Origin: the human T2T-CHM13v2.0 reference genome, Homo sapiens | Length of the DNA: 64,000 bases | Strand: one strand, 5' to 3' | NCBI RefSeq assembly: GCF_009914755.1 | Contig: NC_060927.1 | Shown here: positions 53,585-58,227 of the stretch, piece after piece | How positions within the stretch are numbered: the stretch's first letter is position 1 | Layout of the letters: every line of letters starts with the position of its first letter | Notes under the pieces: generated by a model | Told to the model about the DNA's origin: nothing | The model's database searches: none | Seen by the model: the letters and a program-made list of their open reading frames with translations, nothing else | Translations under genes and position numbers: made by a program

Positions 53585-55669
53585 TCAATTCCCACCTATG
53601 AGTGAGAATATGCTGTGTTTGGTTTTTTGTTCTTGCGATAGTTTACTGAGAATGATGGTTTCCAATTTCATCCATGTCCCTACAAAGGATATGAACTCAT
53701 CATTTTTTATGGCTGCATAGTATTCCATGGTGTATATGTGCCACATTTTCTTAATCCAGTCTATCATTGTTGGACATTTGGCTTGGTTCCAAGTCTTTGC
53801 TATTGTGAATAGTGCCGCAATAAACATACGTGTGCATGTGTCTTTATAGCAGCATGATTTATAGTCCTTTGGGTATATACCCAGTAATGGGATGGCTGGG
53901 TCAAATGGTATTTCTAGTTCTAGATCCCTGAGGAATCGCCACACTGACTTCCACAATGGTTGAACTAGTTTACAGTCCCACCAACAGTGTAAAAGTGTTC
54001 CTATTTCTCCACATCCTCTCCAGCACCTGCTGTTTCCTGACTTTTTAATGATTGCCATTCTAACTGGTGTGAGATGATATCTCATAGTGGTTTTGATTTG
54101 CATTTCTCTGATGGCCAGTGATGATGAGCATTTCTTCATGTGTTTTTTGGCTGCATAAATGTCTTCTTTTGAGAAGTGTCTGTTCATGTCCTTCGCCCAC
54201 TTTTTGATGGGGTTGTTTGTTTTTTTCTTGTAAATTTGTTTGAGTTCATTGTAGATTCTGGATATTAGCCCTTTGTCAGATGAGTAGGTTGCGAAAATTT
54301 TCTCCCATGTTGTAGGTTGCCTGTTCACTCTGATGGTAGTTTCTTTTGCTGTGCAGAAGCTCTTTAGTTTAATTAGATCCCATTTGTCAATTTTGGCTTT
54401 TGTTGCCATTGCTTTTGGTGTTTTGGACATGAAGTCCTTGCCCACGCCTATGTCCTGAATGGTAATGCCTAGGTTTTCTTCTAGGGTTTTTATGGTTTTA
54501 GGTCTAACGTTTAAATCTTTAATCCATCTTGAATTGATTTTTGTATAAGGTGTAAGGAAGGGATCCAGTTTCAGCTTTCTACATATGGCTAGCCAGTTTT
54601 CCCAGCACCATTTATTAAATAGGGAATCCTTTCCCCATTGCTTGTTTTTCTCAGGTTTGTCAAAGATCAGATAGTTGTAGATATGCGGCATTATTTCTGA
54701 GGGCTCTGTTCTGTTCCATTGATCTATATCTCTGTTTTGGTACCAGTACCATGCTGTTTTGGTTACTGTAGCCTTGTAGTATAGTTTGAAGTCAGGTAGT
54801 GTGATGCCTCCAGCTTTGTTCTTTTGGCTTAGGATTGACTTGGCGATGCGGGCTCTTTTTTGGTTCCATATGAACTTTAAAGTAGTTGTTTCCAATTCTG
54901 TGAAGAAAGTCATTGGTAGCTTGATGGGGATAGCATTGAATCTGTAAATTACCTTGGGCAGTATGGCCATTTTCATGATATTGATTCTTCCTACCCATGA
55001 GCATGGAATGTTCTTTCATTTGTTTGTGTCCTCTTTTATTTCCTTGAGCAGTGGTTTGTAGTTCTCCTTGAAGGGTCCTTCACATCCCTTGTAAGTTGGA
55101 TTCCTAGGTATTTTATTCTCTTTGAAGCAATTGTGAATGGGAGTTCACCCATGATTTGGCTCTCTGTTTGTCTGTTGTTGGTGTATAAGAATGCTTGTGA
55201 TTTTTGTACATTGATTTTGTATCCTGAGACTTTGCTGAAGTTGCTTATCAGCTTAAGGAGATTTTGGGCTGAGACGATGGGGTTTTCTAGATAAACAATC
55301 ATGTCGTCTGCAAACAGGGACAATTTGACTTCCTCTTTTCCTAATTGAATACCCTTTATTTCCTTCTCCTGCCTGATTGCCCTGGCCAGAACTTCCAACA
55401 CTATGTTGAATAGGAGCGGTGAGAGAGGGCATCCCTGTCTTGTGCCAGTTTTCAAAGGGAATGCTTCCAGTTTTTGCCCATTCAGTATGATATTGGCTGT
55501 GGGTTTGTCATAGATAGCTCTTATTATTTTGAAATACGTCCCATCAATACCTAATTTATTGAGAGATTTTAGCATGAAGGGTTGTTGAATTTTGTCAAAG
55601 GCTTTTTCTGCATCTATTGAGATAATCATGTGGTTTTTGTCTTTGGCTCTGTTTATATGCTGGATTACA
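53585..55669 (-). pseudogene. L1 ORF2 C-terminal half (RT core with FADD motif and Cys-rich domain), frameshifted
   Basis: ORFs 55036-55695 ([24 protein letters not shown]) and 53585-54976; 1-bp deletion near 55073 (ttgaag-ggtcc versus L1 ttgaagaggtcc). Confidence 0.93.
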
Positions 55670-56373
55670 GAAGCCTCGGGAGCCGATGCGATCAACTGGA
55701 AGAAAGGGTATCAGCAATGGAAGATGAAATGAATGAAATGAAGCGAGAAGGGAAGTTTAGAGAAAAAAGAATAAAAAGAAATGAGCAAAGCCTCCAAGAA
55801 ATATGGGACTATGTGAAAAGACCAAATCTACGTCTGATTGGTGTACCTGAAAGTGATGTGGAGAATGGAACCAAGTTGGAAAACACTCTGCAGGATATTA
55901 TCCAGGAGAACTTCCCCAATCTAGCAAGGCAGGCCAACGTTCAGATTCAGGAAATACAGAGAACGCCACAAAGATACTCCTCGAGAAGAGCAACTCCAAG
56001 ACACATAATTGTCAGATTCACCAAAGTTGAAATGAAGGAAAAAATGTTAAGGGCAGCCAGAGAGAAACGTCGGGTTACCCTCAAAGGAAAGCCCATCAGA
56101 CTAACAGCGGATCTCTCGGCAGAAACCCTACAAGCCAGAAGAGAGTGGGGGCCAATATTCAACATTCTTAAAGAAAAGAATTTTCAACCCAGAATTTCAT
56201 ATCCAGCCAAACTAAGCTTCATAAGTGAAGGAGAAATAAAATACTTTATAGACAAGCAAATGCTGAGAGATTTTGTCACCACCAGGCCTGCCCTAAAAGA
56301 GCTCCTGAAGGAAGCGCTAAACATGGAAAGGAACAACCGGTACCAGCCGCTGCAAAATCATGCCAAAATGTAA
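55670..56373 (+). pseudogene. L1 ORF1p, C-terminal 234 codons (partial coiled coil, RRM, CTD), in the inverted segment
   Basis: [28 protein letters not shown]...YPAKLS...NRYQPLQNHAKM*; the N-terminal ~104 aa and the 5'UTR are absent. Confidence 0.93.
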
Positions 56374-56436
56374 AGACCATCGAGACTAGGAAGAAACTGC
56401 ATCAACTAATGAGCAAAATCACCAGCTAACATCATA

Positions 56437-58227
56437 ATGACAGGATCAAATTCACACATAACAATATTAACTTTAAATATAAATGGACTAAATTCTGCAA
56501 TTAAAAGACACAGACTGGCAAGTTGGATAAAGAGTCAAGACCCATCAGTGTGCTGTATTCAGGAAACCCATCTCACGTGCAGAGACACACATAGGCTCAA
56601 AATAAAAGGATGGAGGAAGATCTACCAAGCAAATGGAAAACAAAAAAAGGCAGGGGTTGCAATCCTAGTCTCTGATAAAACAGACTTTAAACCAACAAAG
56701 ATCAAAAGAGACAAAGAAGGCCATTACATAATGGTAAAGGGATCAATTCAACAAGAGGAGCTAACTATCCTAAATATTTATGCACCCAATACAGGAGCAC
56801 CCAGATTCATAAAGCAAGTCCTGAGTGACCTACAAAGAGACTTAGACTCCCACACATTAATAATGGGAGACTTTAACACCCCACTGTCAACATTAGACAG
56901 ATCAACGAGACAGAAAGTCAACAAGGATACCCAGGAATTGAACTCAGCTCTGCACCAAGCAGACCTAATAGACATCTACAGAACTCTCCACCCCAAATCA
57001 ACAGAATATACATTTTTTTCAGCACCACACCACACCTATTCCAAAATTGACCACATAGTTGGAAGTAAAGCTCTCCTCAGCAAATGTAAAAGAACAGAAA
57101 TTATAACAAACTGTCTCTCAGACCACAGTGCAATCAAACTAGAACTCAGGATTAAGAATCTCACTCAAAGCCGCTCAACTACATGGAAACTGAACAACCT
57201 GCTCCTGAATGACTACTGGGTACATAACGAAATGAAGGCAGAAATAAAGATGTTCTTTGAAACCAACGAGAACAAAGACACCACATACCAGAATCTCTGG
57301 GACGCATTCAAAGCAGTGTGTAGAGGGAAATTTATAGCACTAAATGCCTACAAGAGAAAGCAGGAAAGATCCAAAATTGACACCCTAACATCACAATTAA
57401 AAGAACTAGAAAAGCAAGAACAAACACATTCAAAAGCTAGCAGAAGGCAAGAAATAACTAAAATCAGAGCAGAACTGAAGGAAATAGAGACACAAAAAAC
57501 CCTTCAAAAAATCAATGAATCCAGGAGCTGGTTTTTTGAAAGCATCAACAAAATTGATAGACCGCTAGCAAGACTAATAAAGAAAAAAAGAGAGAAGAAT
57601 CAAATAGACACAATAAAAAATGATAAAGGGGATATCACCACCGATCCCACAGAAATACAAACTACCATCAGAGAATACTACAAACACCTCTACGCAAATA
57701 AACTAGAAAATCTAGAAGAAATGGATACATTCCTCGACACATACACTCTCCCAAGACTAAACCAGGAAGAAGTTGAATCTCTGAATAGACCAATAACAGG
57801 CTCTGAAATTGTGGCAATAATCAATAGTTTACCAACCAAAAAGAGTCCAGGACCAGATGGATTCACAGCCGAATTCTACCAGAGGTACAAGGAGGAACTG
57901 GTACCATTCCTTCTGAAACTATTCCAATCAATAGAAAAAGAGGGAATCCTCCCTAACTCATTTTATGAGGCCAGCATCATTCTGACACCAAAGCCGGGCA
58001 GAGACACAACCAAAAAAGAGAATTTTAGACCAATATCCTTGATGAACATTGATGCAAAAATCCTCAATAAAATACTGGCAAACCGAATCCAGCAGCACAT
58101 CAAAAAGCTTATCCACCATGATCAAGTGGGCTTCATCCCTGGGATGCAAGGCTGGTTCAATATACGCAAATCAATAAATGTAATCCAGCATATAAACAGA
58201 GCCAAAGACAAAAATACTTCTCTTTAA
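56437..58227 (+). CDS. Truncated L1 ORF2p (uninterrupted APE-like endonuclease, linker and start of RT; 596 aa)
   Basis: [19 protein letters not shown]...IQETH...GDFNTPL...SDHSAI; 63-nt spacer after the ORF1 stop; the frame runs into the TSD and stops at TAA 58225-58227. Confidence 0.88.

What the first reader, a model, noticed from the sequence alone, without database searches (positions are those of the whole stretch)
55634..58225. Twin-priming inversion with readable junctions and a 36-bp duplicated breakpoint
Seen: L1 runs antisense up to 55669 and sense from 55668 to 58214. The internal junction shares a 2-nt microhomology (CA, 55668-55669). The outer junction shares AAA (58212-58214) between L1 (gacaaaaa) and the TSD. 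The 36 bp tgtaatccagcatataaacagagccaaagacaaaaa occurs in both arms (58179-58214 and, inverted, 55634-55669). The reconstructed target TCTTT/AA fits the L1 endonuclease consensus TTTT/AA. Inference: the second nick's TTT-3' end primed internally on the RNA, and the poly(A)-primed cDNA ran about 36 nt past that point. A ~2.5 kb inverted arm plus a transduction in one insertion is an informative combination.
Basis: partly seen in the sequence, partly recalled or inferred. Interest (0 to 1): 0.7.

Follow-up and report, generated by a model that had tools for sequence, protein, structure and literature searches.

The report
Inverted L1 insertion, parent traced
This is an ordinary, already catalogued human jumping-gene (L1) insertion whose front half is flipped, with a 31-36-base overlap at the flip point, likely made by copying one RNA from both cut DNA ends, and it carries a 140-base tag matching the DNA just behind a now-broken L1 on chromosome 2, its likely parent.

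Summary
One 5,035-bp L1HS (Ta-0) insertion, 10 kb downstream of ALCAM, sits inside a single 14-bp target-site duplication (53177-53190, 58212-58225). On the minus strand it reads: inverted L1 1221-3767, forward L1 3732-end, poly(A), 140-bp 3' transduction, poly(A). The 36-bp overlap, the CA and AAA microhomologies and the CTTT/AA cut site are confirmed. Since both microhomologies lie inside the 36 bp, the duplication is 31-36 bp; each microhomology alone is weak (chance 15% and 11%). The transduction matches at 99% the flank behind a full-length Ta-0 L1 at chr2:178.46 Mb, broken in both ORFs in this assembly. Twin priming with an internal duplication is the best explanation (0.88), and it is a known class: 17% of 5'-inverted L1s in one tumour study, median 22 bp. 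This very element is listed in a 1000 Genomes long-read table as a polymorphic reference L1 with inversion plus duplication, which argues against misassembly and two insertions. That table calls it 'solo' with a 51-bp TSD, so the transduction and its parent are the only additions here. Already known; low interest.

The parts
53177..53190 (+). Target-site duplication, copy at the poly(A) end (14 bp)
53191..53201 (-). Terminal poly(A) tail (11 T on +, continuous with the last 3 T of the TSD)
53202..53343 (-). 3' transduction: 53204-53343 matches chr2:178461799-178461938 at 99% (one mismatch, 53212); two extra bases at 53202-53203 are not in the source; AATAAA at 53220-53215; it is the 3' part of an old dispersed LTR-like repeat
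53339..53350 (-). Carried-along copy of the chr2 element's own 12-bp TSD
53344..53378 (-). Internal poly(A) of the parent L1 (A16-G-A13-G-A4 here; A17-G-A3-G-A4 at chr2)
53379..55669 (-). Forward (poly(A)-primed) arm: L1 3732 to about 6006; ORF2 from about residue 581 to the end with a 1-bp deletion near 55073, and the 3' UTR; Ta (ACA) and Ta-0 (G, C) diagnostics
55634..55669 (-). Duplicated segment, copy in the forward arm (L1 3732-3767)
55668..55669 (.). Inversion junction, 2-nt microhomology CA
55668..58214 (+). Inverted arm: L1 1221-3767; C-terminal two thirds of ORF1, spacer, ORF2 residues 1 to about 593; no 5' UTR
58179..58214 (+). Duplicated segment, copy in the inverted arm
58212..58225 (+). 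Target-site duplication at the 5' junction; its first 3 bases (AAA) are shared with L1; followed by AA, giving the cut site CTTT/AA

Best explanation
This is one L1HS Ta-0 insertion with an inverted 5' half, a 31-36-bp duplication at the inversion point and a 140-bp 3' transduction, likely made by twin priming on a read-through RNA from the full-length L1 at chr2:178.46 Mb. Shown: the structure, both junctions, one TSD pair, the match of the transduced DNA to the chr2 flank. Inferred steps: (1) transcription ran through the L1's own poly(A) and ended 13 nt after an AATAAA in the flanking LTR-like repeat; (2) the L1 endonuclease nicked CTTT/AA and the T-rich end primed on the final poly(A), copying to L1 3732-3734; (3) a second nick 14 nt away freed a TTT-3' end that paired with AAA at L1 3765-3767 and was copied to 1221-1223; (4) 31-33 nt of RNA were thus copied twice, so one cDNA displaced the other; (5) the two cDNA ends joined through 2 nt of complementarity and repair filled in. 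The product has no promoter and a split ORF2, so it is predicted to be immobile.
For: Single TSD pair. Arms map to adjoining parts of one L1 with a 36-bp overlap; about 1.2% chance for independent ends. The inverted arm ends exactly at the TSD. Transduction: 1 of 39 non-self scored matches is at 99%, the other 38 at 86% or less, and it lies directly behind a full-length L1 with its own 12-bp TSD. Both arms carry minority variants shared with the chr2 element: 57986 C (2 of 29 other copies) and 56631 A (8 of 29) in the inverted arm; 53552 C (0 of 6) in the forward arm. The chr2 element ties for best non-self match to the 3' 822 bp. Published deletion allele chr3-108305184-DEL, 5,035 bp, 'TRUN+REV+DUP+FOR+POLYA' (PMC12350158 Suppl. 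Table 18) equals insert plus one TSD. About 70% of 5'-inverted L1s have 2-5 bp 5' microhomology (PMC2912911).
Against: Trees of each arm do not give a supported clade of insertion plus chr2 element; in the forward-arm tree the chr2 element groups weakly (88/86) with three other copies. In the inverted arm 13 of 29 other copies are one substitution closer than the chr2 element (11 vs 12), and two sites (56823 G, 57113 G) differ from the chr2 element and its two lineage mates while matching states seen in other copies. In the forward arm 3 of 29 copies are closer (7-8 vs 10). Each microhomology is weak alone. The order of the two priming events cannot be read from the product.
Confidence: 0.88

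Rival explanations
1. One target site, two RNAs: the second nick primed on a different L1 RNA (a sibling Ta-0 transcript), and the two cDNAs were joined. The duplication would then need no strand displacement.
For: Two sites in the inverted arm depart from the chr2 lineage; arm trees are unresolved. Extension of the two ends of one break on different mRNAs has been reported in an experimental clone (10.1101/2024.12.14.628481, passage seen).
Against: Two independent templates give no reason for the ends to fall within 36 bp of each other (about 1.2%). The inverted arm shares 57986 C with the chr2 element and only 2 of 29 others. A second RNA from the same chr2 locus could not be told apart.
Confidence: 0.07
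2. A plain 5'-truncated L1 inserted first and its 5' 2.5 kb was inverted later by a repair or replication event that also duplicated 31-36 bp.
For: Short microhomologies also fit end joining; the element has aged (15 substitutions private to it).
Against: The inversion ends exactly at the TSD with the TSD intact; the structure is that of a common class formed at insertion.
Confidence: 0.02
3. Two separate insertions head to head, or an assembly artefact.
For: None found.
Against: Only one TSD pair and no tail or TSD at the inner junction; an independent long-read resource reports the whole 5,035 bp as one deletion allele, although its conformation label was derived from the same reference sequence.
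Confidence: 0.01
4. Twin priming as above, but the immediate parent was an intermediate full-length copy that already carried the chr2 transduction and is absent from this assembly. This changes the donor only.
For: 28 substitutions separate the insertion from the chr2 element; the inner A run is 13 versus 3 and two extra bases precede the final tail.
Against: No third copy of the transduction in this assembly among 40 of 41 candidates scored; substitutions split about evenly (15 private to the insertion, 12 to the chr2 element, 1 ambiguous), as expected if both simply aged.
Confidence: 0.08

Closest known systems
5'-inverted L1 with internal duplication (twin priming; Ostertag and Kazazian 2001, not held, known here through passages of PMC2912911 and 10.1101/2024.08.27.596794)
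   Same: Inverted 5' segment at one TSD, forward segment with poly(A) at the other, short duplication at the inversion point, microhomology at both junctions. 283 of 1,703 (17%) 5'-inverted insertions had an internal duplication, median 22 bp.
   Different: Longer than typical: forward about 2.3 kb plus tails and transduction, inverted 2.55 kb, against medians of 1.51 and 0.54 kb; the same study reports that the two lengths correlate (R = 0.76).
chr3-108305184-DEL-5035 in Schloissnig et al. 2025 (PMC12350158, Suppl. Table 18)
   Same: The same element: position, 5,035-bp length, L1, conformation TRUN+REV+DUP+FOR+POLYA.
   Different: Listed as 'solo' with a 51-bp TSD; the sequence shows a 14-bp TSD, a second tail and a 140-bp transduction from chr2.
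[quoted passage not shown]
   Same: Same combination; 10 occurrences of REV+DUP+FOR+POLYA+TD in the 18,827 rows of the table that are held.
   Different: This source locus was not found in what I could read; the source catalogue (Table 19) is cut from the held file.

Membership tests
5'-inverted (twin-primed) L1 | One TSD pair around the whole insert | tested here: met
   14 bp, two hits in the window
5'-inverted (twin-primed) L1 | Inverted 5' segment abutting the 5' TSD, forward segment ending in poly(A) | tested here: met
5'-inverted (twin-primed) L1 | The two segments meet near one point of the L1 map (small deletion or duplication) | tested here: met
   overlap L016 5498-5533
5'-inverted (twin-primed) L1 | Microhomology at the 5' junction and at the inversion junction | tested here: met
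   3 nt and 2 nt; chance 10.7% and 14.6%, so weak alone
5'-inverted (twin-primed) L1 | L1 endonuclease-type cut site | tested here: met
   CTTT/AA against TTTT/AA (PMC2912911); one mismatch
5'-inverted (twin-primed) L1 | Both segments copied from the same RNA | tested here: inconclusive
   shared minority variants in both arms, two discordant sites, unresolved trees
5'-inverted (twin-primed) L1 | Internal priming by the second nick (the reaction itself) | not testable with these tools
   inferred from the product
L1HS Ta | ACA at 5929-5931 | tested here: met
   ACA in insertion and chr2 element; definition from PMC12350158; the motif context used to find the site is recalled, its position agrees within 1-2 bases after allowing for the source's deletions
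L1HS Ta-0 | G at 5535 and C at 5538 | tested here: met
   G and C in both; definition
Partnered L1 3' transduction | Non-L1 sequence between two poly(A) tracts inside the TSD | tested here: met
Partnered L1 3' transduction | That sequence maps directly downstream of a full-length L1 | tested here: met
   chr2:178461799-178461938, 99%
Partnered L1 3' transduction | Polyadenylation signal near the end of the transduced sequence | tested here: met
   AATAAA 13 nt before the final tail
Polymorphic reference L1 | A clean empty allele exists in people | not testable with these tools
   no other human genome held; published 5,035-bp deletion call matches in size; frequency and sequence not seen

The most novel reading that the evidence does not exclude
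The Ta-0 L1 at chr2:178.46 Mb is an unlisted germline source element: it is broken in both ORFs in this assembly, yet its one traceable offspring still segregates in people and was filed as 'solo' by a current long-read catalogue. Short transductions into old repeats may thus be missed, and the pair (28 substitutions apart) would mark an unusually old L1 presence/absence polymorphism.
Probability: 0.35. Interest if true: 0.2.

Novelty: already known. Interest (0 to 1): 0.1.

Why it matters
Little beyond bookkeeping. It is a clean textbook case with readable junctions. It corrects one catalogue row (TSD 14 bp, not 51; partnered, not solo) and links the insertion to a parent. Events with a duplication show that a stretch of RNA was copied twice, which bears on how ORF2p handles two primers, but one old germline copy adds nothing to the hundreds already catalogued. 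No effect on ALCAM is shown.

Tried and rejected
Internal L1 palindrome as cause of the 36-bp inverted repeat: rejected, the 36-mer is single-copy in the parent. Different subfamilies for the two arms: rejected, both match young L1 copies at 99% or more over the stretches searched. Siblings carrying the same transduction: none in this assembly (40 of 41 candidates scored). Arm-by-arm trees with 29 other copies: unresolved. Upstream half of the LTR-like repeat in front of the chr2 L1: no hit in L016 901-1766 with 13 paralogs. Literature on this pair: no paper with transduction + LINE-1 + PDE11A (the gene name is my recollection of the chr2 region, from no call); 2 unrelated papers for transduction + L1HS + ALCAM + insertion (listing only); no hit for 2q31.2 or the source coordinates in the held part of PMC12350158's supplement. 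No relevant hit in the supplements of PMC8647825 and PMC10191854, but those searches used GRCh37/38 coordinate prefixes that I estimated from memory, so they are weak negatives. Not readable: the 2001 twin-priming paper, two further PMC ids tried for the T2T repeat paper and a 2003 transduction paper, the supplement of PMC9311842, bioRxiv supplements, Table 19 of PMC12350158. Earlier scan findings were not available.

Full report
Observation. The 36-bp inverted repeat is present at the stated coordinates, 55634-55669 and 58179-58214, 100% complementary. A 14-bp direct repeat lies at 53177-53190 and 58212-58225 and nowhere else in the window with up to one mismatch (0.13 expected). Insert plus one copy is 5,035 bp. 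The + arm encodes the C-terminal two thirds of L1 ORF1p and ORF2p residues 1 to about 593; the - arm resumes at about ORF2p residue 581 (PDB matches), so about 12 codons are present twice.

Parent. The 142 bp between the two T tracts (53202-53343) has one near-identical match elsewhere in the assembly, chr2:178461799-178461938 (99% over 140 bp); the other 38 non-self scored matches are 71-86% identical copies of an old repeat (40 of 41 candidates scored). Directly upstream on chr2 is a full-length L1 with its own 12-bp TSD (L016 1755-1766 and 7793-7804), and the insertion carries a copy of that TSD. The transduction ends 13 nt after an AATAAA that is also seen at the matching place in 9 of 13 paralogs. 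Those paralogs align to each other over up to about 420 bp and end at about the same point; I read this as an LTR with its poly(A) signal, a label from recall and from no library search. In this assembly the chr2 L1 has a stop in ORF1 (146 aa), and a frameshift, a 14-bp deletion and a stop in ORF2.

Breakpoints. With the chr2 L1 as ruler (position 1 = L016 1767), the inverted arm is L1 1221-3767 and the forward arm 3732 to about 6006. The inner junction shares CA and the outer junction shares AAA with the TSD; other L1 copies give the same parent bases (26 and 27 of 29 located). Both microhomologies lie within the 36 bp, so the duplication is 31-36 bp, and 31-33 nt were copied twice if AAA came from the target. 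Random joins give at least 2 nt at the inner junction in 14.6% and at least 3 nt at the outer in 10.7% of cases: consistent with priming and annealing, not proof. The cut site is CTTT/AA.

Subfamily and relatedness. Insertion and chr2 element both have ACA and G/C at the Ta and Ta-0 sites (definitions in PMC12350158). They differ by 28 substitutions (12 in 2,547 bp, 16 in 2,291 bp) and three indels. Against other copies, 15 substitutions are private to the insertion, 12 to the chr2 element, 1 ambiguous, plus a 1-bp ORF2 deletion in the insertion (26 of 29 copies located, all with the base). Both arms share minority variants with the chr2 element (57986 C, 2 of 29; 56631 A, 8 of 29; 53552 C, 0 of 6). 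Against this, 13 of 29 copies are one substitution closer in the inverted arm and 3 of 29 are closer in the forward arm, two inverted-arm sites (56823, 57113) differ from the chr2 lineage, and arm trees are unresolved. The 29 copies were chosen as best matches to the inverted arm, so they are not a random sample. The transduction fixes the origin of the forward arm; the same origin for the inverted arm is likely, not proven.

Mechanism. Most likely (0.88) a read-through RNA from the chr2 element was primed at its final poly(A) by the first nick, and internally at AAA (L1 3765-3767) by the TTT-3' end of a second nick 14 nt away; the first cDNA passed the internal priming site by 34-36 nt and the two cDNAs joined through 2 nt. 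The double copy requires one cDNA to displace the other; which came first cannot be read from the product. Two independent ends would fall within 36 nt of each other about 1.2% of the time, the main argument against two unrelated templates or two insertions. All reaction steps are inferred.

What is known. PMC2912911 (part 1 and passages) gives 2-5 bp 5' microhomology in about 70% of 605 inverted L1s. PMC12350158 (passages and supplement searches) counts 1,047 L1 5' inversions and lists this element as chr3-108305184-DEL, 5,035 bp, TRUN+REV+DUP+FOR+POLYA, 'solo', TSD 51 bp; its authors treat such deletions as reference insertions absent in some people. In the 18,827 rows held of that table, REV+DUP+FOR+POLYA occurs 127 times (10 with a transduction), REV+DEL 365 times (27) and REV+BLUNT 10 times (the file is cut, and families were not separated). 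PMC7617806 (passages) shows ORF2p nicking the second strand early, which makes twin priming feasible. 10.1101/2024.12.14.628481 (passages) reports two ends of one break extended on different mRNAs, the basis of one rival. 10.1101/2021.07.12.451456 (passages) counts 183 high-confidence L1 3' transductions in CHM13; its tables were not visible. 10.1101/2024.04.18.590093 (passages) had no mention of 2q31. Supplements that I could not see may already list the chr2 parent.

Verdict. Observation confirmed, interpretation supported, class and locus already known. The additions are the correct TSD, the transduction and its parent. Interest 0.1.

Noticed in passing
window 38103-38752: Older L1 3' fragment (84% to the chr2 L1), on the minus strand in the last ALCAM intron.
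   Followed up: no
window 58316-58612: Alu about 90 bp right of the L1, with an apparent TSD that has one or two mismatches (58298-58315 vs about 58622-58636); it is inverted relative to the Alu at 52655-52966, so two opposite Alus bracket the insertion.
   Followed up: no
window 52591-52966: (TG)23 microsatellite running into the T tail of an Alu that has an inserted stretch near 52810-52840.
   Followed up: no
L016 7796-7985 (chr2:178461795-178461984): The LTR-like repeat behind the chr2 L1 starts almost exactly at the L1's TSD; its upstream part (about 240 bp in paralogs) was not found in front of the L1. Unexplained; possibly an old truncation.
   Followed up: partly
window 53344-53378 and 53202-53203: The inner A run is 13 bases here and 3 at chr2, and two G bases absent from the source precede the final tail: slippage during copying, later tail decay, or an intermediate donor.
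   Followed up: partly
window 56823 and 57113: Two sites 290 bp apart where the insertion matches states seen in other L1 lineages, not its parent lineage: recurrent mutation or a short gene-conversion tract.
   Followed up: partly
L030 (chr2:16.63 Mb) and L038 (chr12:3.51 Mb): Two L1 copies that share the rare 57986 C variant with the insertion and its chr2 parent; likely the same small Ta-0 lineage.
   Followed up: partly
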